In this document: in pieces, positions 1-45,201 of the stretch
How the letters are laid out: each line of letters begins with the position of its first letter
Numbering within the stretch: position 1 is the stretch's first letter
NCBI GenBank assembly: GCA_026387165.1
Contig: JAPLMG010000015.1
Span: 1 to 45,201, forward strand
Origin: Candidatus Omnitrophota bacterium
GTDB taxonomy: Bacteria; Omnitrophota; Gorgyraeia; 2-01-FULL-45-10
Direction of reading: 5' to 3'
DNA: 45,201 bases
The notes under the pieces: model-generated
Database searches by the model: none
What the model was told of the DNA's origin: nothing
Seen by the model: the letters and a program-made list of their open reading frames with translations, nothing else
Position numbers and translations under genes: made by a program

Positions 1-93
1 AGATAGTAAGATTCGGCGATTCAGATATATTGAATAATATCGACGGGGTTTATGAAGTAATTCAGGGGGTTATAGAAAACAGGAAAAAGATTG

Positions 94-21035: not shown

Positions 21036-21510
21036 GTCGAGATAGGTAAGCTGAACGTGACGCAGGCTTGGATAGACAGGTTCATACCGAGCATCAAATT
21101 GAGAGCGGTAGTTTCGGCGATGCAGCGCCTCGTAGGAGTCGAGATCAGGATTCCGATAATTACAGGCGGCGAGCAACAGGCCAACCAGCGCATAACAGAG
21201 CTTGAGCTTAGTAATATCAGATCATCACTTTCCGATGAAAATCGAGAAGTCTTCGATGAATTATACGCGATGTTTACGGAGCTCGAAAGGACGCTTAAGG
21301 ACCTTGAAGGCAGCGAGATAGCGCTTGCCTGGGCGTACGAGAATTATGAAAATGCCCGGAAAGATCTTGAACGGGGGGCTATCGATGAGATAGCGTATGT
21401 AGCGGCGATCAAGGCCTTAAACGGAGCCGAAATAAGATACACTGCGACAAGAGATAGTTATATTAAGCTCGATACGCTGCTCCGCGCGAGGCTCAATAGT
21501 TACGGCCTGA
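20955..21510 (+). other. TolC/OEP-type repeat 2, interrupted by the in-frame TAG
   Basis: LSPEMRDLVAPFASRDPRIRILEK*VEIGKLNVTQAWIDRFIPSIKL...VGVEIRIPIITGGEQQANQRITELELSNIRSSL...DLERGAIDEIAYVAAIKALNGAEIRYTATRDSYIKLDTLLRARLN. This matches the OEP consensus shape: NPdl..a...v.aa.a.v..a....lPsl.l ... l.lPlfdgG...a.i..a ... y.aG.....dvl.a...l..a......a...y......L. Confidence 0.55.
21033..21035 (+). other. Single in-frame TAG separating two giant ORFs of identical frame
   Basis: 3039 and 21120 are both 0 mod 3. The 28 codons from 21036 to 21119 contain no stop, so the TAG is the only interruption in 42,162 nt of open frame. Confidence 0.95.
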
Positions 21511-33500: not shown

Positions 33501-36500
33501 GAAAGCTATTTGAGCAGCGTCCTGAGATCGGCCAACCTTACAGATATGGAGCAGGAATTAAAAGACCAGCTTAAGTGGTGGGAACCGGGATTCGAAAATG
33601 AATGGGACAGCATTACGGAACTATTGAGGGTTTATCTGCTGGATAGAGCGGTAAGGGCGGCGGCGAAAGACGGAAAGGCCGCTGAGCTCGCGTATTTAAT
33701 AGGCCAGATAGATGAAGACCGGCAGAATCTCATAAGGGCCGTCAACGATATCGTAAGGCGTATCAGCCCGAGGAAGATAGGGGAGACGTACTGGGTATAC
33801 GCGTCACTTTCGGAGAAGCAGGATTTTGTCAGGAAAACGGTAGAGTTGCATATAAAGGACGCCGCCAAGCGTGCGGAAGCTATAGGGCATATCAGTAAAT
33901 TGCTCGCGCTTACTCCGGAAGAAGAGGTCAAAAGGCTGATAAAGATGCAGGATTCATTTGATGCCGAGAGGGCCACGGAGCTGCAGAATGCCGTGAAGGA
34001 AGAAGAAGGCAAGGCGCCGGAGAAGAAGAAGGGCATCCCTAACAGAAGAAAAGAGATGTTCAGGGCTACGATAGAGCCTTTTGGCAGGTTGGACGATATT
34101 CGCGTGCTCGGCATCTCCTTCTCATGGGGGCTGTCGCGCAGGCTCAAGGGCATCAGCGGGGAAATATATAGAGAAGGCCTGACCGGCGCGGACAGGATGA
34201 AAGTTATCAGGCGCCACAGGAAGTTCTATGGAAGGCTGCTCGCGCTGGTCGGAGGCGACGCGCGAAACGAAGAACGAACCGAAAAAGAGATGCTCGAATT
34301 ATACGATTATCTCGTCAAGCGCGACGCGTCCATAAGGCTTAAGGCGGACGCGGACGTCATGATAGACAGGCTGAAAAAAGAAGAGGAGAAGTTGAAGGAG
34401 AACGCCTTTAAGCAATTTGTGCTGGAAGAGTGGGATAAAGTTGTCGCCTTTATGAAGGGGCGTTCTGCCATAGAGAGAAGACCGATAAAGAAGGATGAAG
34501 ATGCGAGGAAGGCCTCGCGTGAATTACTGGAAAAATCTATTTCGGAGGCCATCGGCAAGGCGGCTGGGGGCCTGACTGGCGAAGAGCTTACGTCGAAGCG
34601 CGAGTGGACGCTCGATCGGGGCTCGAGGGACCTGGAGGCCGGCGAAGGCGATGGCAAGATAGCCGCGGACGGAGCGCTTGCCAGATTTATGGCCGCGGCG
34701 GGAGAGGATGTCGTCGTCTTCGGCGGAGCGGTAAGGAACGCCATCATGCATAAGGAAGAAGATACCGAGGAGTTCGATATATTTATCAGGGCAGGGGATC
34801 CGACGGATGAGGAGATGAGGGAGATATACAGAAAAAGTAAGGAATATATGAAGGACAGGCGCGCCTTGGATGAGCTGATCTACAGGCTGCAAGCCGACCC
34901 AAGATTCAAGGAGCGCCTTGCTCAGCACCTGAGGAGCGTGACGGTGGATATGTTATACGGAATAAACGGTATAAGAAGAGATAATATGCTGGAAGAGGTC
35001 TTGTACAGATATATTCTATATGAAGCGGTGCGGGACCTGCTTATGAGAAAGGCTATCACAGTTATCGCAGCGGAAGCGGCGGTTCTTGGCTGTGATCCAG
35101 AAGCATTGCAGCAGGGTATGGCAATAGTAGATGGAAAGCTGGTGAGGATAGCCGGGTTTCTGGATGGTTCCGGAGATATATTCGCCATACCGGGCAATGA
35201 AGACGTCTTCTTCGATATACCGGAGCTTACCATGAACAGGCTTGCCGTGGGAAAGAAGGATGGCAATTATACTCTCTATGACCAGTATGGCGGCGAGACT
35301 GATATAAAGAGTAAGGCATTAAGGCTTAACTTTAGTGACGGAGTTAAAGATGAAGCGGGCCTCATGATAATATTCCGCGCGCTCAGATTTATTAAGCAGT
35401 ATGAAGAGGCGGGCTTCAAGCCTGACGGAGCGCTTACGAAATTACTTGAAGAGTTCTTCAAAAAACCGAAAGATTTCGGTATCGACAGCCTGGAAGAGCT
35501 TCTCCTGAAATTATATGAATTCACAGCCGACGCGGAGGAAGCCGATGCGTTACTCGAGAGCGTAGGGGCGCTTAAGTTCATTAAGGATAAAGGCATAGAC
35601 TTAGATGATATCAAAAAGGAAGCTCTGACAGCGCAAGAATTAAGAGAAAAAGAGCTTGCCGTCACGGAATTGAGAGCAGCGGAGCTTGCGGACGAAGAAT
35701 CATCTCAGACTGTAATAGGCTTATTAAGCTGGGTAGGCCTTTTAGCCGTGACAGGCGAGAAGAAGATAGCGATAGCAGCCGGCGCCGCCGCCGGCGTACC
35801 AACTGCCGCAGCCAAGCCGGCAGGCGGATACGCAAAAGGGGGCGCTAAGGCTCCTGCCGCGCCTGCCGGAACAGCGCCCGCGTCAGCCGCAGCCAAGCCT
35901 GCAGGCGGATACGCAAAAGGCGGTAAGGTAGCTCCAGCACAAGCTGCAGGCACAGAAGCCTCCCAAGTTTCGGTGCCGACAGGCAAGTCGCTCTTGAGAG
36001 CCGAGCAAGTCGCGCTCGACATACTCTTAGGCCGCGTCTTGCAGAAACCCGCGGAGAAGCCCGGAACCGAAAAAGCCATAGAGGACGGATATGAGCCCGG
36101 CCCGAAAGCAAAAGCTTTTATGCAGAGGTATCTCGGCAAGGATTACAAGTCAGGTGAGAAGCTATTGGGTCTGGGTTACAGAAAGATGAAGAAATTTAGT
36201 AACGATCTGGATAAGATAATAGAAGACGAGATCGAGAGGCGCGCTATAAAGGACGAAGAAGAGATAAGGTATGTTAAATACATAATAAGCCGCATAGTGA
36301 ACTGGAAACCGGTGTATCTGGGACACAAAGTGCGCAGGGATTTGACCGTCAACGAATATTACATACTGAACTGGCGCGCGCTTGAAATAGCGCTCATGCT
36401 CTTGGACAGGCAGGGCTTTGAGAAGAAGAATAAGGAGCTCGCGGAGGAGAAGAGGCTCGCTAATATGAAGTCGTTATTGACGGGCCATGCCCCCGAAGCG

Positions 36501-39500
36501 AACATAGCCGGCATAGATACTATGGATAAGATAACGCTGATCCTCGGCGACAACGGCAGGATAGGCGATCTTCTATTCATCCAGAGGATGCTCGCCGATA
36601 ATCCGCGCCTTCAGGTCTACGCGATACCCAGGGCAAGGCGCTTTATGGACGCGATTACTAGCGAGGATATCGAGAATCTGTTGTTGGGCAAAGATGAGCT
36701 GCGCAGGTCAATGCTTACCTATATAAAATCGAAGGTAAAGAAGGTTATCGACGCCCTTCCGGACAAAGAAAAAAATGAGAAGAAGAAAAAGGAAGGGCTT
36801 TTAAAGGAACTTGCGGGTATAGACGTATCCATCGACGGATCGTATGCGCAATTGAGAACATTCATAGAAGCCAATATAGATGACAATGAAAAGAAAGACG
36901 TTTTAACTAAAGATCTTAGCGCTCTCCCTGATATCGATCCTCTCAAAGGCCTGCGCGAAGCGTGGTTGATGGGGCGGTTTATCCTCGTGGAGGACGGGCC
37001 TGCCGGTGAGGGCATCGACTTAGAGACCGTCTCGGAAGGCGTCGCGGAGGCGCTGTCCGGCGCCGACCGGGTGATAGCGCCCGGCGCGAATAACGCGGCA
37101 TCGATCGCGGCGAGCCGCCTGCCGACCGCGGCAGCGCGCGAAGAGGCTGTCGAAGTAACGGAGTTCGTGCCGCTGATGTCACGCAAAGAGCGCGTCGCTT
37201 CATGGAGCGAAGGCCAAAAGAGGATCGCCGGGCTTTCGGCGCAGGGCCAGAATTTTGTGGTGGCGCTCTTCGACATAGATCATCTTACCAAGTACCACAC
37301 CGCCTACGGAAGAAATCAGCAGCTTGCCGGAAAGGTCAGGATAGTGATAGCCGATATCATCAAAGATATGGAAAAGAGCCGGCTCTATCCCGGTATAAAA
37401 GTGGAGCAGTTCACTAAAAAAGGAGATGAGTCCGCGCTGATCATCAGCACGACAGACAATTCGCCGCTCGACAGGGCCGTGGCAGCGCGGGTATTGGAGC
37501 ATATAAGGCGGGAAGTCGCAAAGGGCACATTCAGGCGCTTCGGCAAGGCCACCATCACAGGTCTGGCGGGATTAAGCGCGAAGAAGATAAGCCAGATAAA
37601 GAGCGTTCTCGGCGCCAGGTTTGCGGTGAAAAACGGTTCAGCCGATATAATCTTCGATTTAATAAAAGGTGAGAAGCCGGAGGAGGCGTGGAAGAGGCAG
37701 CTTGAAATATGGAATGGCCAGCTTACGGAAAAAGGCCTTAAGATAGGCGGCGACTTTAAGCATATCGTGCCCGCCTTCACCATCTCACTCGGCGCCGCGC
37801 AGAACAACGCTGTTGACGGAGCGATATACAACTTGACCAAAACACTGCAAACCAATGTCGATAAAGCCCAAAGAGATTTTGAAATAGCCAGACAGAAAAT
37901 ATCGGATATTTTAGCAGCGCTTTGCGCGACTCAAGATGAGCGTGAAATGATCAGAGATATAATTTATAGAATAAAAGACGTGGACGATATCGGGTTTTTT
38001 GTACAAAATATCGCGGAAGATAACATCCTTTTTAAGTTAGATGATCTGATTTACAAAATTCGGAATATGTTAGATAGCGAAAGAGTAAGGTGTATTAAAG
38101 CTTTGAGGCGACACTATAAAGAGCGCGAGAGAATGATAATAAATGAGCTAAATAATATAGCGGATAACACGACTACTATAGATGCGCTACAGTCGAATAT
38201 AGATAAAAGCTTTGCGGAGATATCCGGGCTTAAAGTTTCCGAAACTGACAAGCAATTTATTATGGGTATTCTGCGGCAGTTGGGTATCAACGTATCTCAA
38301 AAATATGCTAGAAATAAAAATTTGAATGGTATCCTGAAAGATGAATTGGCCGGCAGCATCGCTAAATTGAAAGAATATTTTAGAGGTAAAAGGCGTAAAG
38401 TAAATGAGGACATAGATAATGTAGATAATGTGCTAAAAGGCGCGACGGATATATCGGATGTTGACGCTACAATAGAAAAAGTTTTTGGTCACTTGGGCGA
38501 TTCAGAATACGGAGCTGCATATAAAAAATTTGTGCGCCAAATGGGCGAACGGATAAGAGAAAGATTCGGGCGCGAAAGAGGCGAAATAGGCCCTTATATA
38601 TCGCCGTCTTTGAGTTCTATGGAAGATATATCCAGGTTAAGGAAGATTTTCGAGAGACATAACGCTGCAGATTTACTTAATGTAGCTGATGATGTTTGGA
38701 AAAATTTTGTTAGCATACGAAAATGTATGGCAGGAATTGTGGATGATGAATATGAACGTAATTTGAAGGGTGCTTTAAACATCTCAGAATTGCGGAGATA
38801 CGCTAACAACACTGTTGTGAGTGTTCACAAAGCACTGCAAGTAGCGGCTAATGACCATGAGGCAACTTTATTAGAGAAAAAATATAGGATCGTAAAAATT
38901 CTAACGCCGTTTATAACTCGAGATAGAAATTTTGCTTTAATAAATGCTGCCCAAAGCCCCGAAGACATTCGTCCTGTACCGATACAAGTTCGCGCCGCTA
39001 AAGCCGCAACTTTGGCTAAAGACAGAGGTAGAAATAAAATTGCGTGGTCTGATGACGTGCGATATCCTCAAGGTGTTGTAGAAACATTCTCGCCGCCTGA
39101 AGTTTTGAGGGAAACGACAGAAGAGATAGCGCTGACGGCAGAAGAGGCCCCGAAAGCTCCGCAGACAACTCAGCCGCCGGCCCAGGCCCCGCCCGAGGCG
39201 TTGTCGATAACTCCGCAAAAAACATTTTTACAAAGAATGTTTTCTTTCCTAAGGAATCCTGCGAATATTTCAATTATTCTGATAGGCGCCGCGCTATTAC
39301 TCATGCCGGGATGCACTTACTATACAGCCGCTTCATCTATGCCGTGGTTTCAAATCGGCGCTTTCGTTGTGCCGTCACTGCTTGCTTTGGGACTTGGCAC
39401 TTTCTATTTATACAGACGAGCGAAAATTAAAAAGTATATGAATGAATTGGAAGACAAGGATTTAAATGTTAATGATAGAGCCGCCAAAGCTCTTATAGCG

Positions 39501-42500
39501 TTAAGAGCGCTGCCCACAAAAACAGAATTTACGGTTATTAAGCGCTTAAGAGATTTATCGTACCTATACGACGAGCCATTACTTGAAGATGCTAGAAATG
39601 ATTTAGTAAGAATGGGGAAGGCTGCAGAGCCTTATCTTGTTAAAATATTCGAAAATAAGAATTCAAGACTACGCAGGGCGGCTATAGGTGTTCTTGGTAG
39701 GATCGGTGTAGTTCCTGTCCTCATAAAAGCATCAGAAGATAATGATTTTTACATTCGTGATTTCGCTTATGAGGCGCTTGAAAGATGCAGAGCCTTAAAT
39801 GTAGAGCTTAAGGTTAAGCGATATTTAAAAGATTTAGAAGATGGTAATAAGCGTATTAGTAAATCAAGCGCCTTACTCGCACTCGGCAATATTGGCTCTA
39901 AAGCCGAAGAGGCCGTTCCTGCCATAATAAGATTGTTGGAATATGGAGACGAGAATGATCGTACCAATGCTGCTGATGCATTAGAAAAAATTGGCGCTCT
40001 TACCCCAAATCTTGCTGTGCGCCGATACATAAAAGATCTTGATGGAGTGCGCGACGGGTGCGGTTTCCGTGGAGAGGCTGCCGCTAAAGCGCTTGGCAAC
40101 CTAGGGTCTGAATCCAAGGAAGCCATACCTATTTTAACAAATGCATTAGAAGGTGAGCACTCAAATGTTCGCCAGGAAGCTGCCGCCGCATTGGACAAGC
40201 TCGGAGCCTTAACTGTAGAGCTTAAGGTTAAGCGATATTTAAAAGATTTAGATGAGAATCTCGAGGGTTCTCAATCTCGTATTGTTCGTTCATTAGCGGC
40301 TGAGGCTCTTGAAAAACTTGGTGCTTTCAGCACAGAACTTAAAGTAAGACTATATATAGCTGAATTAAAAGACCTCTTTTATTCTTATGATGATCGCAAG
40401 CCCGCGATCGAAGCTCTAGTAAAAATTGGTCAATCTGCGACTCCTTCCCTCTTAAAAGAATTAGACAATGATCGATATAATATTCGAAGTGCTGTTGCGG
40501 AAACCCTCGAAAGACTCGGAGCCTTAACCGTGGAGCTTAAGGTTAAGAAATATTTAAGAGATTTAGAACATGGTGATTTTAGTTATATTGATGAAAATTG
40601 GCGCTACCGTGGACTAGCCGCAGAAGCTCTCGGTAAAATGGGTCCAGAAGCCAAGGACGCAATCCCCGCTCTCATCAAAAGCTTGACAGATTGTCAGCCA
40701 GATAATCGAATCGTTGCTAGTGAAGCTCTTGTTAAAATAGGAAAAGTCGCTGTACCAAACCTCATCAAAGCATTAGAAGATAGTGAAGAATACGTCCCCA
40801 GTTTCGCCGCCGACATTCTTGGTAAAATAGGCCCTGAAGCAAAAGAAGCTGTCCCCGCTCTCATCAAAAGCATGACAGATAATAAGTCGCCTTATAGAGG
40901 CGCCGCTGATGAAGCTCTTGTTAAAATAGGAAAAGCCGCTGTCCCAGGCCTCATCAAAGTATTGGAAGATAATAATAGCGTTGTCCGTGGAAGTGCCGCA
41001 ATGGTCCTTGAAAAACTAGGGTCATTAACAGTAGAGCTCAAAGTAGCGCGGTATCTTAGTGATTTAAGAGATACAGATAACTCTATCCGTAAAAATGCCA
41101 CCGAAGCTCTTGTTAAAATAGGAAAAGCCGCTGTCCCAGGCCTCATCAAAGTATTGGAAGATAATAATAGCGTTGTCCGTGGAAGTGCCGCAATGGCCCT
41201 TGAAAAACTAGGGTCATTAACAGTGGAGCTCAAAGTGGCGCGGTTTATAAATGATTTAAAAGATAAGGATAGCTCTGTTCGCAGCTGTGCCGCTGACAAC
41301 CTTGGTAAAATAGGTCCGGAAGCTAAAGAATCAGTTCCCGCTCTCGTAAATGTATTAAAAGATAATGACAATGACGTTCGCCGCAATGCTGCCGCAAGCC
41401 TCGGCATAATAGGGGATATACAGGCCTTGCCGGCCCTTATTGGCTTGATAAACGACTACAAAAGCGGCCCTGCGGCAATAATGGCCATTGCCTCCATTGT
41501 ATTTAAAAATAAAAGCGTCTTATCAGAAGATGCTTGGAAGTCTATAATATCTCAGAGTCATATCGACTTAGTAGTAGATATTTTCAAAAAATATCCGGAT
41601 TTATTTAATCAAGATATACAGTGGTTGAATGCAATAAGGCGTCTTATTGAACAGATAAACGAGGAGATTAATATATATCCTGCAAGCGAACAGGAATCCG
41701 TCCGCAAACAGATTTGCGGCAGCATAGACAACTATATCAAAATGTTTGTCCCTGATAACAACGCAGATCGCATAATAACGGAATATAAAGAGATCTCTTC
41801 TCTTTTTGAAATAGTCCACGATAACCTACCGCTATGCCTTGATTCTTTAAGGCAAATCGGTCTGAATATGGCCTATTTCGAATCATTAAGAAAGGCGCTT
41901 CCTTTGAATAATGCCTTGACCAGAATATTAAGGATGCTCGGAGAAAGTGAAAGTGCAATAGGCGGTTTCAGAGATGTTACAACAAAAGTCCAAAAGTCCG
42001 GTAACTTTGGCAGGCTATATTCAATGATAGTTGATGTGGCCAAGAGAAAACAAAGGACCGCCCCCCAGGAAGTATCCGGCCTACTTGAGATATTAAGATC
42101 ATTAGGTAACATTTCAAGATGGAAAGAAAAAAAATGGGAGCGTATTAAAGGCCAGATAGAAAAGTATTACTCATCAGGCTTTAAAGTTATCACATATAAT
42201 CTGTTCAAATACTTTGTAGAACACGAAAACGATGCAGCTGCCTTGTTCACGATGAAAGAAGATATACAGAAACAGTTAGGTAATATCGGATGGGGTGGTT
42301 TCGCTGGATTAACGGACGATTTTAAAAAGAAATACGGCATAACCACGCGGGATGAGATAGCGCTGTTGGCTAAGTATATGGCTATATCAAACCTCACCGC
42401 ACGAGATTATGCCGGTAAATATGAGGATATCAAAAAAGTCCTCGCTAAAAGGGGCGGCGCATGGAAAGACGAAATTGATGAAGGCTTACGAGAACTATTC

Positions 42501-45201
42501 TCTTTAAGAGGAACAAAGAGCGTTGTTGTCTATCAGCCTAAAGATGCGGAGAGAGTTGATAGAGCGGCCCTCCATGGCCGTCTTAGCGCTTACGTTAAAG
42601 ATGAAAATATAAAAGATCCTATTAAGGTTATTCGGGAAGATATTCAAGGGGCTGTGATATCGAGTAGAGAGGCTCTTAAGCAAGCTTTGTTAGCATTTAC
42701 TATACGAAACAGCCAACTCGACAGAGCTTACTATACTGAAACTCCTGGCACAGAAGCTGACACACAAAGATGGCTTACTAGATGGCAAGCTCTTTTAACA
42801 GATGCGTATAAACACGATGCATTCGATAAAATAAGAGATGTGGTGCGTAAAACTATAGATAAAACTAGCGGCAAACGATTGACTGAGCTGATAGCTAATA
42901 ATAATATTCCCGAATTCTTAAGTGTAAAAGACAAGAAAGAATTATCCAAAGAAGATAGTGATATGATCTCTGCGATATCTGATACCAAAGTATCCCCTAA
43001 GCAAAAACAGGATGCGTTATCCTCTATATTCTTGAATAAATGGATGGTTTTGGTAAATACTGATGAGTTAAACGATAAAACATTAATGGTCTCATGGATA
43101 GATAAGGGCTTGGGTAAATTAGCAAGAAGGCTGTTTGAAAAGGCGAAAAAGAAAAATCAGGCGCTTGATCTGACAGAAAGCTCTGTTAAAGATATAGTAC
43201 GGACTGCTTTGCTTGAGGCGGCAGATAATATGAGCGCAAGCCTAAAAGGAAAGGCCGATATTGACAGAAAGAAAGTCTTCCTTGCCGACAGAGTAAGCCA
43301 GAATTTGCGAGATCTATTTAAACAGGATATTAATGACATAGGAAAAGGATTAAAAGGATTTAAGACTGTCGAAAGGGAAGTCAGCAATAATTTATATACT
43401 GGTTTCTTTGATGATCTCTTGCATCTCATGGGATTCATGATGACGGGTGTATGTACATGGGCCGAAAGAGATAAGCAGGTGGCATCGCAAAATTACCATT
43501 TCGGGAAGATTGCTCTCAAAGACGCTACGGGCAGGATATTGGGCTTATCTCAGGTTCAGCTTCTCAAATGTGGCATTCATGGAGTAGCAAGGAAGCAGAC
43601 ACCTAAGGGATGGCGAGTAATAGCGTTGCCGGGCACTAACCTTTATCAGGGTGATATCGGTATGGATAAGGAGAAAGCATTGCTCGCATTATTCGAAACC
43701 GCTCAAACTTTGGCTGAAAAATCGGGCATGGAAGGGGCCGTGTTGCCGGTCAATCCCAACATTCACTCAAATTACGGATTTGAAAAACAGTTTATACAGA
43801 AACTTGTATCTAAAGGGTGGCTTAAAAAAACCACCTTAAGCAAAAACATCAATCTTACGCCTGCAGGATATGCTTATGAGGAAGTGTATCTTATAGCTAT
43901 CCCTAAGGAAGAAACGTTCTTGGTTTCATCATCCCTGGAAGAGAGGATCGACAAGGAAAGGCTTCAGACAGAAAAGGCGGAAAAGGAGAGGACGGTTTCT
44001 ATAAGGGGCGATCTGATAGAATTAATATATGAAAAAGAAATCCCTGAAGAGACTGTATCTGTTGTAAGAAAAGAAATAGAGACTTTGATTTCCAAGATGC
44101 CGCAGGGATTAATAGGGAACATTGGCCTCAATGCTTCATTAAAGGACGTCTCCATCAAGATACGCATAGACTCCGGCGCTGATAAGAGCAGTGTTAATAA
44201 ATCCGAAAATGAAATCGAGTTGACCTTAGCTAAAGACATCCTGTATAAAGAGGGCAAGGTCGAGATAGTAACTTTGAATGAAATGTTATCAGAATTATTC
44301 GCGGCATTTATTTTAGATGATTATGCGCAGTTAAAAGAGAAGTCCCGCACAAATGAAAACGCCTATTTTAAACTTGAACTTGTTAAGACGCTTTTGGGCT
44401 ACAAAAGATACCTCGCCAGATACCATAAAGTTATAAATAAATACGCGTGGAATGAACATAATTATCTCGGCGAAAAATCCGCTGAAGCACAGAAGGCGTT
44501 ATTTACCAAGTATAACGCCGATCTTGATGGATTCACGGAAGGCATGCGGGATATCTCGCAGTGGAACATGTTTCTGAATGTTATGGATGACTCCGACCCG
44601 GACTTCATGGTAATAAACTACGCCCACATACTTTTAAGTGATCCCGTATTTAAGGAGGATGATGTAGAAAAGATAATAACGGATATGGCAGGATCCAATA
44701 TTTTAAATAAACCGAGCATAGCTCATCTGAGGAATTTGATAAAAGATTTCATTTTAAATGGAAAAGCTCATGTTAAGATAGGCGACAAGATTGAAACGAA
44801 AGAGGCATTTACTCACTTTGACAACACGCGGGCATCATCTGAATTAAAAGATGTGCTTCTCACCACCAAAGATCAGGATGAGTTTTATGGCACGTTAAAA
44901 AGTTTGCTCGAAAGCAGTCTGTTGCTCACTACTACAAATATAAACGAGGAAATATCGAGGCTTATTGACAAAAACATATTTAGCTCACCAAGCAGAGAAG
45001 AGTCGATTAGGGCAGCTCTTACAGAAATACTCATACGAAGAATAGGTAGAAGCGCCTTCATGAGCTTCAAAGAACACGAAACGGGCAATAGAGGTTATAA
45101 GGATATACCGCGTATTAAAGTTAATACCTTGAGCTTGCCTGAAGGGATCGATGCAGACGAATATGGATCTTTGGGTGAAGACGACTTCCAGGGTCCGGTC
45201 G
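21120..45201 (+). CDS. Giant multi-domain membrane protein, part 2 (over 8,027 aa, 3' end beyond the window): OEP-like repeat, TM clusters, NTase-like, GGDEF-like, HEAT array
   Basis: Frame 0 stays open from 21036 to the window end by my own translation. It is not in the ORF track, most likely because no stop falls inside the window. First ATG is 21120, and upstream in-frame alternatives are GTG 21057 and TTG 21099. None has a strong SD, there is no N-terminal signal peptide, and there is no terminator or gap after the part 1 stop. Confidence 0.85.
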   Translation, partial: MQRLVGVEIRIPIITGGEQQANQRITELELSNIRSSLSDENREVFDELYAMFTELERTLKDLEGSEIALAWAYENYENARKDLERGAIDEIAYVAAIKALNGAEIRYTATRDSYIKLDTLLRARLNSYGLTNKEIAEMERDARGKEGVEEAARAGAARKAEAIKAVEPARDAELRRLEEKEREAVVIAQKREERERARGQNPLEKQRLTESERAAQALLKGALDADAEKAENTMKYRVRSEIFKDAIITPKYATGVKSYYSIAMESLLTTIGMPFGVTGDGWERAVKIDDWLDVVNSYVVTHNAQFNMNNRLSLMEQTYKGLSPAEKDQLERISRRPNQPIRWDRHWEGYFTSAQINTLNILFKGNERKIASQYLDDGKINPAWIGLSKIGILSYAANRQIADSTKSALGVVKEILANEAIFDREQRFRDPKSEEDKNWPDKDKALDGYTEWLRKTRLSLDNIEFLNIPESAKLADGGPIYQVRRLIKNIFGNERAIFGDYTGRGSVEVWNLYRLLSRLAKPGTERGQYKGLENILKLLHGLVVEGRGSLLDFYGQYDEKRLKALPEALNLRKLIDEREDYRAALEAARPGDDSAALKERLNSKEAQIQREMDILREGRLYGNALSVLRFALESPENSDILAKLGTGDLASGDTDKIMDFVSYYYKTMDTALPYLERVYDDLPNGTIDRDNPEHIGILSHFYSLRAANKWTDDETRYLLQRLVSAKEEAKEFLAMLRNTMVDQITFDSKDTGTVGFLFGHVFARIQNGWDKTAIRDRIPIMGMIKPCLEAYHGYKIDDKGTPEEQADKIGNLLYWNKFLKENLKDDFELFKDILSNRKAVSQAIKEADREQLETALAQADKRTEAEKFAIAVAILKDQKLEECVRADIEERRTVAGRALSPGEETAVRAAAEKAFNELYGLHMMGPRYVEAAKLADAEKDRRVKKLNKEFGQIYALYMAERRLFTETKKAVRSKALEALYVIDPSTQERRAEIDKELMELEKKDEEEFLRLYKSGFISSVADALIVDAGFVRLTGKASIVKNISDVGNVIALRNLLTSLKDEGILAAAEKGMDFELERRRYLDKRRGEIEASLKKADVSLDENTKKSYMKTSEESFAHIYGQGVINSRTNSFFLEGRADPALVKKVLYAEYFVDKLAKLNWRPLNAGEVGNWSWDLMEMIYLTEKQRKLPEAEKAAMLSADLKDAFDIADWEASAGRVLEAKKHMANLFSMIDRVQRERVKAVDATKKYLAKKEKTADGAFKLLFTALEGISEADLKKAGISEAERAEIEALRGKIGALRKMTEESDASKQPSLREDIERADRSKDDFLRLDREVKRETELGVALSDIDALLLRAASLDAGVVKELKEAIIDLGTARTSVTKDGENEFGAAYPSDAAESFVEGLFKKFDKVFEELRKAKERELKDGKSLYEKVKAVEGRLREELRKEELAGSEFATGKAYIDRVNQRLDELRQKVRGTWSSRSLAVKRANLENLQKALEDAKLFYNLDTYRKKHNDEFSVSSGQLRYEKILEQLISESMPSDALAARLASLIEIDKKKLEGETINGVYLNSVYRANGKELETGELGFFQGEIRESVHLGELRKAYEDDLIKKENKTKEEASVLGEWFLRERIGKYVRYEALVTGLEELLMRDQGITDMNSPEAKRLRMTRGQKIGLFMSLEKRVWKEEEEIAYLKEWFKDASLVQTFAGEHLGYRLAHSLLSYTVEVMRSGFGMPVLMNSVDRLSIEFQKAFPYQMAYMNIGDHLRSMEAALWNERELSVIPDDSMTDLILENTFYRNGDLDRVYRAEAIGQLYSFHNQVSYRLSMADYGKDKVTYRDLENTAKALDSVMMPEIAYNAANGIPKLTKDWMRKNKETLDGWFEGRRGEKDARKARALKYENSLKNPDNIPAALKETGDELSKAWKARGNTDPMNEDLAWYFQKIMLSTGISAEDLLKVTYEYPADIEKVWEEVNGRKPTEAESGKIKYYASKMDLDGWTLNYVKTILVYGNYISGLMETLRSAKPTEVEVENLVRLAIDNGILPADPSIPEAKGGLGIEIDSLSVGALLDKKMPLARVIDLTKTIHSKINSPKISIDDVLYLVGLAMDTNIAKPPEEERFSLSREEVRGVVARQFTKERIDLGEFENHRSVIIDGITDALIGKRIHPVNFVILVDRTLALRDAIIKAAADKEVDSEVRPKLEMTRGGFEMLAVLDQQALDINKIIGIADIEALGMGRGSAKYTLTENAVKEPVNSLRRMLINKRIETKYKATKDFVKNNLLKDLKRPEDFKAKLAADVVGEDLVETKRGADGKEYFNVKNNEDAKKFIDKKIGEQRGKEDGDRGSFWRASSYVAGAFSVFVAIYGIGLIRRALRKRDKTAKEKIAAGEAGALAPPPEGAGIEGASPGAGEASLSTAERRTDKGPAPKKEKLAALGRYLVFALKLSTTFVVLYTFSHEFRITMIWCASSGIFIGALAISIILLYSTIKLLSGRFPLFKGELRKYAGLHIKIANFIKLPSTKISEKIKEMESYSDSFRDSAGIFALRLLKVPVGLVTGLIGTGVRLGVPLFPAGYFIWQSGAFTLFAANNVMIFLLVFMLISTVVSKGWDLLVSASKLAFMYLKNSVSEGSYTAPQMKEARHAALTASFNLAVALAANIGTLIYIYFTQNWFASMPWLLAIAALAFTYCNYCVAYILVSALVYGLMAVITACRPGKKPLWDISSYKLIEKIKRVPKKYFTTVYNMGAMKVDDDFRTVMGTTTRSFENNVHMTEVSGEGVPYLRKNSSGKKFAYDTTDNLSMMVKVTSGYFDNTKDSFVKTLRDTLRLRREYGRGKAGIIFTNTDAARADLAGMKPHCYRDDFKYLLEGWNHPHVYVSISDIDVDNLEMITGAVDTSGNFTGRVIATKDDEYFIDNATGEAVLKDGRILKPGEYIRDEKFNIITDYFLRPIGPIARNDPKYKEKYSDESKYYRKKKIVNINGADLDVRVSTETYYVDADDPSIRYRLIKGDLYDDRTGVPVLTKDMYEKSPRHGYLLNKRTKQRIDRGLDGKSLPERVVTVTEQKVFAKNAAQNRIDIYTLTKDGKLLDPSGKLFADIRSISSIRTLYETFKLDKDGSLKKTSDPDMEITDKEDPLASNDGRRFELDVYSVISKELLDQFVDKTDAGGYVTEASKNTEKISKDEWRVDAASGDALMKDGLIVARRGTWRRDKEGNLYIGGISQEDADIFLKEGNLLDVDCLNIGKNGREETYFISTDTVRGIPVASSAGKKDFGAKKEFERFAKEVNGGYLVNAADGFRVVDGKLVQYQKDGIGFDEEKKYVIGENFETTVQDSVAVDPLTGELFQSQRIAKHDTYWHLNDEEKGRNVFRIRKILARLEDVYFDGSGNAKKKGGLDKPVETIAGAGTFVLDEDGNLRSKNVTAEDAAIIQPSTFEAKDITTDHKSGDLIVKKRIAGANEFDINEKGLAVRLPGAGGQAIANIGTFLLKADRGEILDKEGRKVEPDYSIQLAAQIDNKNEYPADHIGRIISRAVNDMEGEEEVGMYQPLIDYPNFGKSLYSRFQGWAQSILSYINMSDFAVFGESSAVGKMTFNINRYNNDVTEKKVIPYNVRSHDFWEAMFTKTARLMGTEEEKIRVLETTPSSFFAQVIRSKRWIDGDVLALKIEYWPVKALFEILRFRPVDAIGTIARGLHRGITGKTHISAESKMHIGAIIRGLISEPVFFFWLFILGVTATIIPGVMTASGPMISLWVLSTVLIILIGQKAVVPIWKEVWEKRGSRAFRALGAVLGAGFSVTAIGLGALHFIPYAKEASFAVAGVLILIAAVRYANKMIRSRHLMRGIVPIAVLAAVIIMAVFLYINPPFAIELALTKMQSAVWIVDFFKWIPKSMPFIVSAILIVKAVGWRADVLSKRGSEQDIKNADILRIVPRAFYIFKRAVWETILGTGILMVLILYKPKYLLDGIKKIFEGERFVWFTMIQGERMVAKGYKLSRAYGEYKWAPILGVTILVATILYMTLGAYFPAFRILDPALAFKGLPIFIFSWIFGPGIAWYSAQYGGSAGHREPAFMHSVSEFRSSLKAKPLDAYGAIEKIRDILKDSGEFNIDVDRSRMYLLYLTQIDFSRDERGLKLESYLSSVLRSANLTDMEQELKDQLKWWEPGFENEWDSITELLRVYLLDRAVRAAAKDGKAAELAYLIGQIDEDRQNLIRAVNDIVRRISPRKIGETYWVYASLSEKQDFVRKTVELHIKDAAKRAEAIGHISKLLALTPEEEVKRLIKMQDSFDAERATELQNAVKEEEGKAPEKKKGIPNRRKEMFRATIEPFGRLDDIRVLGISFSWGLSRRLKGISGEIYREGLTGADRMKVIRRHRKFYGRLLALVGGDARNEERTEKEMLELYDYLVKRDASIRLKADADVMIDRLKKEEEKLKENAFKQFVLEEWDKVVAFMKGRSAIERRPIKKDEDARKASRELLEKSISEAIGKAAGGLTGEELTSKREWTLDRGSRDLEAGEGDGKIAADGALARFMAAAGEDVVVFGGAVRNAIMHKEEDTEEFDIFIRAGDPTDEEMREIYRKSKEYMKDRRALDELIYRLQADPRFKERLAQHLRSVTVDMLYGINGIRRDNMLEEVLYRYILYEAVRDLLMRKAITVIAAEAAVLGCDPEALQQGMAIVDGKLVRIAGFLDGSGDIFAIPGNEDVFFDIPELTMNRLAVGKKDGNYTLYDQYGGETDIKSKALRLNFSDGVKDEAGLMIIFRALRFIKQYEEAGFKPDGALTKLLEEFFKKPKDFGIDSLEELLLKLYEFTADAEEADALLESVGALKFIKDKGIDLDDIKKEALTAQELREKELAVTELRAAELADEESSQTVIGLLSWVGLLAVTGEKKIAIAAGAAAGVPTAAAKPAGGYAKGGAKAPAAPAGTAPASAAAKPAGGYAKGGKVAPAQAAGTEASQVSVPTGKSLLRAEQVALDILLGRVLQKPAEKPGTEKAIEDGYEPGPKAKAFMQRYLGKDYKSGEKLLGLGYRKMKKFSNDLDKIIEDEIERRAIKDEEEIRYVKYIISRIVNWKPVYLGHKVRRDLTVNEYYILNWRALEIALMLLDRQGFEKKNKELAEEKRLANMKSLLTGHAPEANIAGIDTMDKITLILGDNGRIGDLLFIQRMLADNPRLQVYAIPRARRFMDAITSEDIENLLLGKDELRRSMLTYIKSKVKKVIDALPDKEKNEKKKKEGLLKELAGIDVSIDGSYAQLRTFIEANIDDNEKKDVLTKDLSALPDIDPLKGLREAWLMGRFILVEDGPAGEGIDLETVSEGVAEALSGADRVIAPGANNAASIAASRLPTAAAREEAVEVTEFVPLMSRKERVASWSEGQKRIAGLSAQGQNFVVALFDIDHLTKYHTAYGRNQQLAGKVRIVIADIIKDMEKSRLYPGIKVEQFTKKGDESALIISTTDNSPLDRAVAARVLEHIRREVAKGTFRRFGKATITGLAGLSAKKISQIKSVLGARFAVKNGSADIIFDLIKGEKPEEAWKRQLEIWNGQLTEKGLKIGGDFKHIVPAFTISLGAAQNNAVDGAIYNLTKTLQTNVDKAQRDFEIARQKISDILAALCATQDEREMIRDIIYRIKDVDDIGFFVQNIAEDNILFKLDDLIYKIRNMLDSERVRCIKALRRHYKERERMIINELNNIADNTTTIDALQSNIDKSFAEISGLKVSETDKQFIMGILRQLGINVSQKYARNKNLNGILKDELAGSIAKLKEYFRGKRRKVNEDIDNVDNVLKGATDISDVDATIEKVFGHLGDSEYGAAYKKFVRQMGERIRERFGRERGEIGPYISPSLSSMEDISRLRKIFERHNAADLLNVADDVWKNFVSIRKCMAGIVDDEYERNLKGALNISELRRYANNTVVSVHKALQVAANDHEATLLEKKYRIVKILTPFITRDRNFALINAAQSPEDIRPVPIQVRAAKAATLAKDRGRNKIAWSDDVRYPQGVVETFSPPEVLRETTEEIALTAEEAPKAPQTTQPPAQAPPEALSITPQKTFLQRMFSFLRNPANISIILIGAALLLMPGCTYYTAASSMPWFQIGAFVVPSLLALGLGTFYLYRRAKIKKYMNELEDKDLNVNDRAAKALIALRALPTKTEFTVIKRLRDLSYLYDEPLLEDARNDLVRMGKAAEPYLVKIFENKNSRLRRAAIGVLGRIGVVPVLIKASEDNDFYIRDFAYEALERCRALNVELKVKRYLKDLEDGNKRISKSSALLALGNIGSKAEEAVPAIIRLLEYGDENDRTNAADALEKIGALTPNLAVRRYIKDLDGVRDGCGFRGEAAAKALGNLGSESKEAIPILTNALEGEHSNVRQEAAAALDKLGALTVELKVKRYLKDLDENLEGSQSRIVRSLAAEALEKLGAFSTELKVRLYIAELKDLFYSYDDRKPAIEALVKIGQSATPSLLKELDNDRYNIRSAVAETLERLGALTVELKVKKYLRDLEHGDFSYIDENWRYRGLAAEALGKMGPEAKDAIPALIKSLTDCQPDNRIVASEALVKIGKVAVPNLIKALEDSEEYVPSFAADILGKIGPEAKEAVPALIKSMTDNKSPYRGAADEALVKIGKAAVPGLIKVLEDNNSVVRGSAAMVLEKLGSLTVELKVARYLSDLRDTDNSIRKNATEALVKIGKAAVPGLIKVLEDNNSVVRGSAAMALEKLGSLTVELKVARFINDLKDKDSSVRSCAADNLGKIGPEAKESVPALVNVLKDNDNDVRRNAAASLGIIGDIQALPALIGLINDYKSGPAAIMAIASIVFKNKSVLSEDAWKSIISQSHIDLVVDIFKKYPDLFNQDIQWLNAIRRLIEQINEEINIYPASEQESVRKQICGSIDNYIKMFVPDNNADRIITEYKEISSLFEIVHDNLPLCLDSLRQIGLNMAYFESLRKALPLNNALTRILRMLGESESAIGGFRDVTTKVQKSGNFGRLYSMIVDVAKRKQRTAPQEVSGLLEILRSLGNISRWKEKKWERIKGQIEKYYSSGFKVITYNLFKYFVEHENDAAALFTMKEDIQKQLGNIGWGGFAGLTDDFKKKYGITTRDEIALLAKYMAISNLTARDYAGKYEDIKKVLAKRGGAWKDEIDEGLRELFSLRGTKSVVVYQPKDAERVDRAALHGRLSAYVKDENIKDPIKVIREDIQGAVISSREALKQALLAFTIRNSQLDRAYYTETPGTEADTQRWLTRWQALLTDAYKHDAFDKIRDVVRKTIDKTSGKRLTELIANNNIPEFLSVKDKKELSKEDSDMISAISDTKVSPKQKQDALSSIFLNKWMVLVNTDELNDKTLMVSWIDKGLGKLARRLFEKAKKKNQALDLTESSVKDIVRTALLEAADNMSASLKGKADIDRKKVFLADRVSQNLRDLFKQDINDIGKGLKGFKTVEREVSNNLYTGFFDDLLHLMGFMMTGVCTWAERDKQVASQNYHFGKIALKDATGRILGLSQVQLLKCGIHGVARKQTPKGWRVIALPGTNLYQGDIGMDKEKALLALFETAQTLAEKSGMEGAVLPVNPNIHSNYGFEKQFIQKLVSKGWLKKTTLSKNINLTPAGYAYEEVYLIAIPKEETFLVSSSLEERIDKERLQTEKAEKERTVSIRGDLIELIYEKEIPEETVSVVRKEIETLISKMPQGLIGNIGLNASLKDVSIKIRIDSGADKSSVNKSENEIELTLAKDILYKEGKVEIVTLNEMLSELFAAFILDDYAQLKEKSRTNENAYFKLELVKTLLGYKRYLARYHKVINKYAWNEHNYLGEKSAEAQKALFTKYNADLDGFTEGMRDISQWNMFLNVMDDSDPDFMVINYAHILLSDPVFKEDDVEKIITDMAGSNILNKPSIAHLRNLIKDFILNGKAHVKIGDKIETKEAFTHFDNTRASSELKDVLLTTKDQDEFYGTLKSLLESSLLLTTTNINEEISRLIDKNIFSSPSREESIRAALTEILIRRIGRSAFMSFKEHETGNRGYKDIPRIKVNTLSLPEGIDADEYGSLGEDDFQGPV
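28150..29260 (+). other. Transmembrane cluster 3
   Basis: Example segments: YVAGAFSVFVAIYGIGLI, LVFALKLSTTFVVLYTF, MIWCASSGIFIGALAISIILLY, VPVGLVTGLIGTGV, FTLFAANNVMIFLLVFMLISTVV, LAVALAANIGTLIYIYF, WLLAIAALAFTYCNYCVAYILVSALVYGLMAVI. Confidence 0.7.
29780..31630 (+). repeat. Degenerate beta-hairpin-like repeats (D-x-x-G-x-L type) in the roughly 1,000-aa loop between TM clusters 3 and 4
   Basis: Recurring short motif: FIDNATGEAVLKDGRIL, LIKGDLYDDRTGVPVL, IYTLTKDGKLLDPSGKL, FKLDKDGSLKK, WRVDAASGDALMKDGLIV, WRRDKEGNLYI, VNAADGFRVVDGKLVQY, VAVDPLTGELF, FVLDEDGNLRS, LLKADRGEILDKEGRKV. Confidence 0.3.
32260..33285 (+). other. Transmembrane cluster 4
   Basis: Example segments: PVFFFWLFILGVTATIIPGVM, MISLWVLSTVLIILIG, LGAVLGAGFSVTAIGLGALHFI, FAVAGVLILIAAV, IVPIAVLAAVIIMAVFLYI, MPFIVSAILIV, ILGTGILMVLILY, ILGVTILVATILYMTLGAYF, LPIFIFSWIFGPGIAWY. 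Confidence 0.7.
34690..35430 (+). other. Class-II nucleotidyltransferase head domain (CCA-adding enzyme / poly(A) polymerase family-like)
   Basis: VVVFGGAVRNAIMHKEEDTEEFDIFI compares with the GGxVRD...DxD motif. ELTMNRLAVGKKDGNYTLYDQYGGETDIKSKALRLNFSDGVKDEAGLMIIFRALRFIKQYEEAGF compares with D.TiNA.A....G...D..GG..DL....iR......F.EDplRiLRA.RFa..l.F. The spacing between the two motif blocks (about 170 aa) is longer than usual. Confidence 0.6.
35805..35921 (+). repeat. Two copies of a 36-nt unit (AAAKPAGGYAKGG), period 81 bp, just after a single TM helix
   Basis: GCCGCAGCCAAGCCGGCAGGCGGATACGCAAAAGGG (35805-35840) against GCCGCAGCCAAGCCTGCAGGCGGATACGCAAAAGGC (35886-35921), with 2 mismatches. The preceding helix is VIGLLSWVGLLAVTG. 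Confidence 0.85.
37245..37810 (+). other. Degenerate GGDEF-like (nucleotide cyclase palm) domain, signature KGDES
   Basis: VVALFDIDHLTKYHTAYGRNQQLAGKVRIVIADII compares with l.l.DiDhFK.iND.yGH..GD.vL. FTKKGDESALIISTTD (KKGDES at 37416-37433) compares with R.GGDEFail. PAFTISLGAAQ compares with vtvSiGvA. An insert of about 90 aa precedes the last strand. Confidence 0.5.
39264..39415 (+). other. TM hairpin (two helices) preceding the HEAT array
   Basis: ISIILIGAALLLMPG and WFQIGAFVVPSLLALGLGTFYLY, followed by a basic RRAKIKK. Confidence 0.6.
39447..41500 (+). repeat. HEAT / PBS-lyase-type repeat array (about 680 aa)
   Basis: Many units of the form xxVRxxAAxALGKIGxxAKEAVPALIKxLxDxx, for example NDVRRNAAASLGIIGDIQALPALIGLIND. 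They are interleaved with a recurring LGALTVELKVKRYLKDL segment, whose DNA copies lie near 39793, 40206 and 40522. Confidence 0.75.
40930..41263 (+). repeat. Near-identical tandem duplication inside the HEAT array (142-bp core, period 192 bp = 64 aa)
   Basis: 40930-41071 against 41122-41263 shows 3 mismatches in 142 bp (GTC/GCC, GTA/GTG, GTA/GTG). An older diverged copy starts at about 40726. Confidence 0.9.

What the first reader, a model, noticed from the sequence alone, without database searches (positions are those of the whole stretch)
37800..45201. Abrupt compositional break inside the open reading frame near 37.8 kb
Hand counts of 60-nt lines give 65% GC at 36961-37020 but 35% at 38101-38160 and 27% at 44701-44760. 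The switch occurs within about 100 nt of 37.8 kb, right after the GGDEF-like domain. Leu codons change from CTx-rich to TTA/TTG-rich. The only GC-rich interruption is a Pro-rich linker at about 39120-39210. The frame stays open across the break, which argues against a random mis-join. It suggests that the distal 7.4 kb or more (the HEAT array and following helical modules) was recruited from a different compositional background, making this a mosaic or modular giant gene.
Basis: seen in the sequence. Interest (0 to 1): 0.6.

Follow-up and report, generated by a model that had tools for sequence, protein, structure and literature searches.

The report
Foreign 8-kb cassette inside giant gene
The sharp drop in GC content at 37.8 kb is real: it marks the left edge of an 8-kb piece of foreign, low-GC DNA, encoding a membrane hairpin, a HEAT-repeat array and a large conserved domain, that sits in frame inside a giant Omnitrophota gene, which shows one way such genes grow.

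Summary
In the open frame 21057-45200, third-position GC falls from 0.62 to 0.38 within 37803-37875. Synonymous codon choice changes for almost every amino acid, so amino-acid make-up does not explain it.

The low-GC part is an internal cassette of about 2,665 codons (8.0 kb), not a recruited distal tail.
- The window is a whole contig (C251). Its last 15 nt equal the first 15 nt of contig C62, in the same frame.
- Native codon usage and homology to relatives resume at C62:~669.
- Three relatives (37-54% identity) have an empty site: the GGDEF-like domain, an 86-94 aa linker, then the 'VLKGGEFGG' module.
- The HEAT array plus the 1,150-aa domain has relatives in 13 of 400 Omnitrophota genomes sampled across the phylum. 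None were found in the genomes searched from its own family.
- Those relatives are stand-alone 2,000-2,300 aa genes or segments of open frames of 45,000-82,000 codons.
- The two closest lie on 36-43% GC contigs with matching codon usage.

Best reading: horizontal gain of a cassette, inserted in frame at a module boundary. An assembly chimera is unlikely, because it would need two in-frame junctions on two contigs.

The parts
3039..21035 (+). Upstream part of the giant gene (5,998 codons). It ends at TAG 21033-21035 and has native composition (GC 0.523, GC3 about 0.59).
21057..37859 (+). Native part of ORF2 (codons 1-5601), GC3 0.62. Collinear with giant ORFs of relatives G031:C8 and G034:C18 (27-41% identity) up to residue 5581-5590. 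The last roughly 200 codons are the GGDEF-like domain.
37803..37875 (+). Left junction: support interval of the GC3 change point (best 37839). The codon-usage Viterbi boundary is at 37857/37860. It falls just after the conserved 'VPAFTISLGAA' strand of the GGDEF-like domain.
37860..45201 (+). Window portion (7,342 nt) of the foreign-composition cassette. The whole cassette runs from codon 5602 to 8266 of the joined ORF, that is C251:37860 to C62:666 (2,665 codons, 7,995 nt).
37860..39026 (+). Cassette part A: a helical region of about 390 aa with no detectable relatives (an orphan).
   Evidence: one marginal hit, E 3.4e-4, in 400 phylum genomes; one hit at E 4.8e-5 in 1.84 billion representatives; no Pfam family passes its cut-off
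39027..39257 (+). 'AKDRGRNKIAW' motif followed by a Pro-rich linker (the GC-rich interruption). The motif resembles the end of the GGDEF-like domain in relatives, but its codon usage is foreign-like and the match is not significant.
   Evidence: (z 2.2; 9 of 200 shuffles reach it)
39258..39404 (+). Two hydrophobic helices (residues 6068-6089 and 6098-6116) forming a membrane hairpin. An even number of crossings leaves the sidedness of everything downstream unchanged.
   Evidence: Kyte-Doolittle only. A similar pair precedes the HEAT array in the 44,966-codon open frame of G405.
39447..41636 (+). HEAT-repeat array (residues 6131-6860).
   Evidence: PF13646 HEAT_2, E 9.5e-61, 8 stretches
41757..45200 (+). 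Conserved 1,150-aa helical plus alpha/beta domain of unknown function. With the HEAT array it forms the recurrent module (30-57% identity to stand-alone HEAT proteins and to segments of open frames of 45,000-82,000 codons).
   Evidence: model pLDDT 82; no Pfam, PDB-sequence or significant fold match
45187..45201 (+). 15-nt exact overlap with the first 15 nt of contig C62, in the same reading frame (..EDDFQGPV | QGPVDFLGTD..). The cassette continues for 651 nt in C62.

Best explanation
The break at 37.84 kb is the left edge of a horizontally acquired cassette of about 8.0 kb (2,665 codons). The cassette was inserted in frame into an Omnitrophota giant membrane-protein gene, in the short linker between a GGDEF-like domain and the next module (which begins 'VLKGGEFGG').

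The cassette encodes, in order: an orphan helical region, a two-helix membrane hairpin, a HEAT-repeat array, a conserved 1,150-aa domain, and a 200-aa tail. It still carries the codon usage of a lower-GC donor, so the gain is recent relative to the time composition takes to drift to the host's.

Shown:
- both junctions, each inside an assembled contig;
- the empty site in three relatives;
- relatives of the module elsewhere in the phylum, and the module's position in their tree;
- codon usage like that of the hosts of its nearest relatives.

Inferred:
- the direction of the event (gain rather than loss);
- the donor: a low-GC organism, possibly another Omnitrophota, and either a stand-alone HEAT-protein gene or another giant gene;
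- the integration route: illegitimate or homology-facilitated recombination at a module boundary, kept only because it was in frame and free of stops;
- that the even number of membrane helices is what let the downstream protein keep its topology;
- that the HEAT array serves as a protein-binding scaffold added to the giant protein.
For: Composition
- GC3 falls from 0.619 to 0.378 at 37803-37875 and returns from 0.383 to 0.624 at C62:630-681.
- A two-state codon-usage model conditioned on the amino acid gives one foreign block, codons 5602-8266. The result is stable over switch penalties 1e-2 to 1e-4.
- Synonymous usage differs with chi-square 636, 41 df.

Contiguity
- The C251 end and the C62 start share 15 nt in the same frame.
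- About 5e-4 contig-end overlaps of 15 nt or more are expected by chance in this assembly. The assembly otherwise shows 141-nt graph overlaps.
- Alignments to P0002, P0003 and P0007 run through the contig break in register.

Empty site
- G031:C8 and G034:C18 align with ORF2 up to residue 5581-5590, then with C62 from nt 579-618 onward.
- These two relatives stay homologous to each other straight across that point, with flat GC3.
- L027, a closer relative (51% identity over 1,026 aa), has 86 aa between the two flanks on a single contig.

Foreign relatives
- The module is found in 13 of 400 genomes sampled across the phylum. It was not found in 16 of those from its own family, nor did a query spanning the junction match it in 36 family genomes.
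- It was not found anywhere else in its own genome.
- In the tree the window copy is sister to P0002 (support 97/94), then P0003 (98/95). Both are stand-alone genes with their own start and stop, on contigs of 43% and 36% GC.
- RSCU correlation of the insert is 0.77, 0.74 and 0.78 to P0002, P0003 and an unrelated gene on P0003's contig. It is 0.23 to the native part of ORF2, which correlates 0.97 with ORF1.
- In other hosts the module's GC equals that of its flanks.
Against: - Both junctions rest on a short-read metagenome assembly of a 77%-complete, 5.5%-contaminated bin.
- The C251-to-C62 link rests on a 15-nt overlap plus frame, codon usage and homology, not on a spanning contig.
- There are no mobility genes, tRNA or target-site duplication at the edges. 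The only repeat is a 10-nt inverted match, which is not significant.
- The nearest relative of the module is only 57% identical, so no donor is identified and the event cannot be dated.
- A 'GRNK' motif like the end of the relatives' GGDEF-like domain lies 390 aa inside the cassette and has foreign-like codons. A plain insertion does not predict this.
- No closer relative (same species or genus) with or without the cassette was found.
Confidence: 0.78

Rival explanations
1. Assembly chimera. The low-GC stretch belongs to another organism in the sample, and the assembler joined it to the giant gene.
For: The source is a fragmented short-read metagenome bin: 308 contigs, 5.5% contamination. The assembly graph overlaps are 141 nt. 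Contig C251 ends inside the low-GC stretch. No read evidence is available. No second assembly of the junction was found.
Against: - Two independent mis-joins would be needed, one in C251 and one in C62.
- Both would have to keep strand and frame (about 1/36 by chance).
- Both would have to land at adjacent positions of the same gene (relatives' residues 3557 and 3620).
- No repeat or shared sequence lies at either junction.
- Neither contig breaks at its junction, as a branching graph node would cause.
- 2,665 AT-rich codons contain no stop.
Confidence: 0.08
2. Allelic replacement by homologous recombination. The cassette came with its flanking domain ends from an orthologous or paralogous giant gene of a lower-GC Omnitrophota, with crossovers in the conserved GGDEF-like and 'VLKGGEFGG' motifs. 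This is a sub-type of horizontal gain and differs from the best explanation only in the route.
For: Both edges abut conserved motifs. A second GGDEF-end-like 'AKDRGRNKIAW' motif with foreign codon usage lies inside the cassette. The module also sits inside open frames of 45,000-82,000 codons, behind a pair of hydrophobic helices, in G405 and G241.
Against: - Neither the first 467 aa of the cassette nor its tail shows homology to the relatives or to the other loci examined.
- The GRNK match is not significant.
- With GC3 of 0.62 against 0.38, stretches of identity long enough for RecA-type exchange are unlikely (inference).
Confidence: 0.1
3. Ancestral segment lost three times. The cassette is old, the relatives deleted it, and its low GC3 is kept by local mutation bias or selection, for example on translation speed.
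For: Repeat arrays are deletion-prone. The module is widespread in the phylum.
Against: - It needs at least two independent precise deletions that leave similar 86-94 aa linkers.
- An old resident would have host composition, as the module does in every other host examined.
- The codon usage resembles that of specific foreign contigs.
- The tree places the copy with proteins from low-GC contigs, not with genomes of its own class.
Confidence: 0.04

Closest known systems
Giant multi-domain membrane proteins of Omnitrophota ('Archaeovorins'; West-Roberts et al., bioRxiv 10.1101/2023.11.21.568195; also 10.64898/2026.06.07.730766)
   Same: The host gene's relatives are Omnitrophota MAG contigs (record titles). 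It has many transmembrane clusters and enzyme-like domains. HEAT repeats are the commonest domain reported for these proteins. The same HEAT-plus-domain module occurs in open frames of 44,856, 44,966 and 81,822 codons.
   Different: Neither paper's text contains 'horizontal', 'recombination' or 'mosaic'. Here one module is caught with the donor's composition still intact and with empty-site relatives. West-Roberts et al. predict HEAT repeats to be extracellular. Here a two-helix hairpin puts the array on the same side as its flanking domains (hydropathy only).
Horizontally acquired genomic islands and mosaic genes recognised by atypical composition. Examples recalled from my own knowledge: Lawrence and Ochman's amelioration concept; mosaic pbp genes; module exchange in NRPS/PKS genes; Reva and Tuemmler 2008 on the atypical oligonucleotide usage of bacterial giant genes.
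   Same: Sharp GC3 and codon-usage discontinuity, absence from relatives, and discordant phylogeny of the segment.
   Different: The island lies wholly inside one reading frame, is fused in frame at both ends, and carries no integrase, tRNA or flanking repeats.
Variable-end cassettes of polymorphic toxin systems (Rhs, CdiA), whose C-terminal tips often have lower GC (own knowledge)
   Same: A conserved giant or large protein with a replaceable, compositionally distinct segment that starts right after a conserved motif.
   Different: The segment is internal and the native protein resumes after it. There is no toxin or immunity signature.
Stand-alone HEAT-repeat proteins of 2,000-2,300 aa from metagenomes (P0002, P0003, P0010; JGI 'HEAT repeat protein')
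   Same: 30-57% identity over the HEAT array and the 1,150-aa domain, in the same order, reaching nearly to their C-termini.
   Different: They are separate genes with their own start and stop, in ordinary neighbourhoods. One of them, P0004, has a single N-terminal hydrophobic anchor instead of a hairpin.

Membership tests
Horizontally acquired segment (genomic-island criteria) | Composition and codon usage deviate from the host genome, with sharp edges | tested here: met
Horizontally acquired segment (genomic-island criteria) | Absent from related genomes that keep both flanks (empty site) | tested here: met
   G031, G034 and L027
Horizontally acquired segment (genomic-island criteria) | The segment's own phylogeny disagrees with that of its flanks | tested here: met
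   The flanks' relatives are in its own family. The module was not found in the family genomes searched and is sister to proteins on low-GC contigs.
Horizontally acquired segment (genomic-island criteria) | Mobility genes, a tRNA target or flanking direct repeats | tested here: not met
   No integrase or transposase domain. No direct repeat longer than 8 nt at the edges. Not found on viral contigs.
Omnitrophota giant ('Archaeovorin-type') proteins | Encoded in Omnitrophota; very long ORF with transmembrane clusters and HEAT repeats | tested here: met
   Relatives' record titles; 16 hydropathy peaks in the native part of ORF2 (some overlap) plus the hairpin; HEAT_2 at E 9.5e-61
Omnitrophota giant ('Archaeovorin-type') proteins | Length in the range that the papers call giant | tested here: inconclusive
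   The joined ORF2 has 10,473 codons, or about 16,470 with ORF1 across one TAG. The locus continues over further contigs. I did not check the papers' length threshold.
HEAT repeat family (Pfam PF13646 HEAT_2) | Score above the Pfam gathering cut-off | tested here: met
   202.5 bits against a cut-off of 27.7, in 8 stretches
GGDEF domain (Pfam PF00990) immediately upstream of the break | Score above the Pfam gathering cut-off | tested here: not met
   No hit for window 37197-37976, even at E up to 10. The L027 orthologue gives 12.8 bits against a cut-off of 23.8.
Intein or other self-splicing in-frame insert | Hint or intein splicing domain at the edges of the insert | tested here: not met
   No such Pfam family in residues 4001-8048 or in the first 406 residues of the insert
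Polymorphic-toxin C-terminal cassette (Rhs/CdiA type) | The variable segment forms the C-terminal tip and carries a toxin domain with an adjacent immunity gene | tested here: not met
   The segment is internal and the native ORF resumes for about 2,200 codons. No toxin family was found.

The most novel reading that the evidence does not exclude
Omnitrophota giant genes may grow and diversify by repeated in-frame capture of whole foreign genes or modules at module boundaries. The 'membrane hairpin + HEAT array + 1,150-aa domain' unit would be a self-contained, topology-neutral cassette that moves between stand-alone genes and open frames of 10,000 to 80,000 codons across the phylum. The window would then hold the first such event caught before its composition drifted to the host's.
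Probability: 0.4. Interest if true: 0.65.

Novelty: new member of a known kind. Interest (0 to 1): 0.5.

Why it matters
How bacterial genes reach tens of thousands of codons is an open question. The two preprints on Omnitrophota giant proteins describe domain content but not the process that builds them.

This locus gives a concrete, testable example. It is an 8-kb module with donor-type codon usage, fused in frame at a module boundary, with three relatives that show the site before insertion. The same module also occurs both as a stand-alone gene and inside much larger genes. Together these point to horizontal cassette capture as one route of growth.

The locus also gives a marker for finding more such events: codon-usage segmentation within a single ORF.

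There is a practical caution as well. Contig ends in such bins can hide the second junction, so a 'distal tail' seen on one contig may really be an insert.

Tried and rejected
- A metagenome scan with a 400-aa query spanning the junction found nothing. A second scan with the downstream alignment only re-found G031's contig.
- The five same-genus genomes gave no match to the 1,000-aa query that spans the junction or to the downstream flank alignment A1. No close empty or filled site is therefore available.
- The idea that amino-acid make-up explains the shift is rejected. GC3 and codon usage conditioned on the amino acid carry the signal.
- The idea of two separate inserts with a native island around the GRNK motif and Pro-rich linker is rejected. 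Viterbi gives one block, and the GRNK window is foreign-like. Only a 25-codon Pro/Ala-rich window scores native-like.
- Target-site duplication or terminal repeats: only a 10-nt inverted match, at about chance level.
- No copy of the insert was found elsewhere in the genome at protein or DNA level.
- The module was not found on viral contigs.
- Donor taxonomy through a RuvB-like neighbour of P0003 was uninformative: no match in 201 Omnitrophota genomes.
- Function of the 1,150-aa domain: no Pfam, PDB-sequence or significant fold match. There are only weak GNAT-like hints (Foldseek probability 0.6-0.7, E above 0.4) for the central alpha/beta part.
Full report
SETTING

The window is an entire contig (C251, 45,201 nt) of a fragmented metagenome bin. 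The bin has 1.93 Mb in 308 contigs, GC 47.5%, 77% completeness and 5.5% contamination.

It holds two huge frames on the + strand: 3039-21035 (5,998 codons) and 21057-45200 (8,048 codons, open at the contig end). Earlier notes of this scan read them as one Omnitrophota giant gene cut by a single TAG. Record titles of the relatives I found confirm the phylum.

THE OBSERVATION

- In 600-nt bins, GC3 is 0.51-0.71 up to 37856 and 0.29-0.44 afterwards. GC1 and GC2 change little.
- A likelihood change point puts the switch at 37839, with support 37803-37875. GC3 is 0.619 against 0.378, and the log-likelihood gain is 201.
- Synonymous codon choice differs for almost every amino acid (chi-square 636, 41 df).

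The break is therefore real, abrupt, and not an effect of amino-acid make-up. It is also the largest low-GC3 tract in the genome.

WHAT LIES BEYOND THE CONTIG END

Two same-family genomes carry collinear giant ORFs.
- G031:C8 has ORFs of 7,806 and 7,289 codons. G034:C18 has one of 13,898 codons.
- Both align with ORF2 up to residue 5581-5590, which is exactly the break, and not beyond it.
- They remain homologous to each other straight across that point for another ~10,000 codons, with flat GC3.
- Their downstream part is present in the window's own genome on contig C62, from nt 579-618 onward.

C62 is the direct continuation of C251.
- C62's first 15 nt are identical to C251's last 15 nt, in the same frame (..EDDFQGPV | QGPVDFLGTD..).
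- The assembly otherwise shows 141-nt overlaps typical of graph-adjacent contigs. Only three short non-repeat overlaps exist in the assembly, and about 5e-4 would be expected by chance at 15 nt or more.
- The joined frame runs 10,473 codons to its first stop.
- Low GC3 continues for about 650 nt into C62 and flips back at C62:669 (support 630-681; GC3 0.383 to 0.624). That is exactly where homology to the relatives resumes ('YAAIVLKGGEFGG').

A two-state codon-usage model conditioned on the amino acid gives a single foreign block. It covers codons 5602-8266 (C251:37860 to C62:666; 7,995 nt) and is stable over three switch penalties. The low-GC DNA is thus an internal insert with both junctions inside assembled contigs.

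THE EMPTY SITE

In G031 and G034, 88-94 residues separate the conserved 'S-x-G-A' strand from 'VVLKGG'. A third and closer relative is L027 (contig CAZHIO010000153.1). It is 51% identical over 1,026 aa downstream and 37% upstream, and it has 86 residues there on one contig. The window's genome has about 2,680.

WHAT THE INSERT ENCODES, IN ORDER

1. About 390 aa of helical sequence with no relatives. It gave one marginal hit in 400 phylum genomes and one in 1.84 billion representative proteins.
2. An 'AKDRGRNKIAW' motif and a Pro-rich linker, which is the GC-rich interruption.
3. Two hydrophobic helices.
4. A HEAT array (PF13646, E 9.5e-61).
5. A conserved 1,150-aa helical plus alpha/beta domain. 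Its model is confident (pLDDT 82), but it has no family, no PDB sequence relative and no significant fold match.
6. A tail of about 200 aa in C62.

WHERE THE MODULE OCCURS ELSEWHERE

Items 4 and 5 together form a recurrent module.
- It is 30-57% identical to stand-alone 2,000-2,300 aa proteins that have their own start and stop in ordinary neighbourhoods (P0002, P0003, P0010).
- It was found in 13 of 400 genomes sampled across the phylum, and in none of the 16 of those that belong to its own family. A query spanning the junction matched only its native half in 36 family genomes.
- In three genomes it lies inside open frames of 44,856, 44,966 and 81,822 codons.
- In every other host its GC equals that of its flanks.
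- In a maximum-likelihood tree the window copy is sister to P0002 (97/94), then P0003 (98/95). Those genes sit on contigs of 43% and 36% GC.
- The insert's RSCU correlates 0.74-0.78 with those genes and with an unrelated gene next to P0003. It correlates only 0.23 with the native part of its own ORF, which correlates 0.97 with ORF1.

INTERPRETATION

The simplest account is a single horizontal gain from a lower-GC donor. The DNA was inserted in frame at the boundary between two modules of the giant gene, recently enough that the donor's codon usage survives.

The site is a poorly conserved linker. The module that follows begins with a motif ('LKGGEFGG') that occurs only twice in the genome. The second copy stands directly after the next in-frame TAG, which suggests that these are real module borders.

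The two-helix hairpin gives an even number of membrane crossings, so the insert need not disturb the sidedness of the thousands of residues downstream. A similar pair of hydrophobic helices precedes the HEAT array in the 44,966-codon open frame of G405. This point rests on hydropathy alone.

RIVAL EXPLANATIONS

- Chimera. It would need two independent mis-joins on two contigs. Both would have to be in frame, and they would have to land at adjacent positions of one gene with no shared sequence at either point. I rate it at about 8%. It cannot be closed without reads, and the read tool was shut.
- Ancient segment lost in the relatives. This fits neither the composition nor the tree.
- Homologous replacement from a low-GC orthologue. 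This is a variant of horizontal gain. The internal GRNK motif with foreign-like codons hints at it, but the match is not significant and no flanking homology was found.

COMPARISON WITH WHAT IS KNOWN

Giant Omnitrophota proteins and their HEAT repeats are described in two preprints. Neither text contains the words horizontal, recombination or mosaic. Compositional islands and mosaic genes are textbook phenomena.

This is therefore a new and clean member of a known kind, not a new kind. Its value is as direct evidence for how these genes are assembled. I did not test that note.

Noticed in passing
Contig C62 of the same genome, nt 7290-7292 (outside the window): A second in-frame TAG ends the joined 10,473-codon frame, and the same frame reopens at once for 5,535 codons. 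The residues right after it ('LLKRGEFGGLE') repeat the motif that follows the cassette at C62:672. With TAG 21033-21035 in the window, that makes two in-frame TAGs in one giant locus. G034 reads through the equivalent region as one 13,898-codon frame.
   Followed up: partly
window 1-16 and 45187-45201: Contig ends link C121 to C251 (16 nt), C251 to C62 (15 nt) and C62 to C293 (141 nt). The giant locus therefore spans at least three or four contigs of the bin. The short overlaps look like coverage gaps rather than graph branches.
   Followed up: partly
window 37860-39026: A 390-aa helical stretch at the start of the cassette has no credible relative in 400 phylum genomes or in 1.84 billion representative proteins. 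It is an orphan carried along with a widespread module.
   Followed up: yes
window 38982-39056: 'AAKAATLAKDRGRNKIAWSDD' resembles the C-terminal helix of the relatives' GGDEF-like domain (L027: 'AARSVVRAKREGRNKVVLSEE'). Yet it lies 390 aa inside the cassette and uses foreign-like codons. The match is not significant (z 2.2).
   Followed up: partly
L027 (CAZHIO010000153.1, 3,531 nt): The closest orthologue of the flanks found anywhere sits on a contig whose record title says 'uncultured Planctomycetia bacterium'. This is probably a mis-binned or mislabelled Omnitrophota contig.
   Followed up: no
Genomes G001-G005 (same genus): None of the five same-genus genomes (86-92% complete) matched the 1,000-aa query that spans the junction or the downstream flank of the giant gene. 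Two genomes of another genus in the family do match. The giant gene itself is patchily distributed, or it regularly fails to assemble.
   Followed up: partly
Other contigs of the genome: C40 ORF residues 435-1319, C17 residues 1239-1831, C269 residues 889-1502, C81 residues 586-1111, C68 (3,758-aa ORF) residues 652-1174: The same codon-usage model flags smaller internal 'foreign-like' blocks of 500-900 codons in several other long ORFs, with much weaker support (log-likelihood 18-56 against 228 here). These may be further cassettes.
   Followed up: no
window 37833-37842 and C62:589-598: A 10-nt inverted match (TTGACCAAAA) lies at the left junction and about 70 nt before the right junction. It is at about chance level for the region searched.
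   Followed up: yes
L011 (JGI Ga0118719_1005443), nt 10394-19077: The stand-alone homologue P0003 lies a few kb from a resolvase gene, a RuvB-like AAA gene with no match in 201 Omnitrophota genomes, and a phage-type integrase. It may sit in a mobile region.
   Followed up: partly
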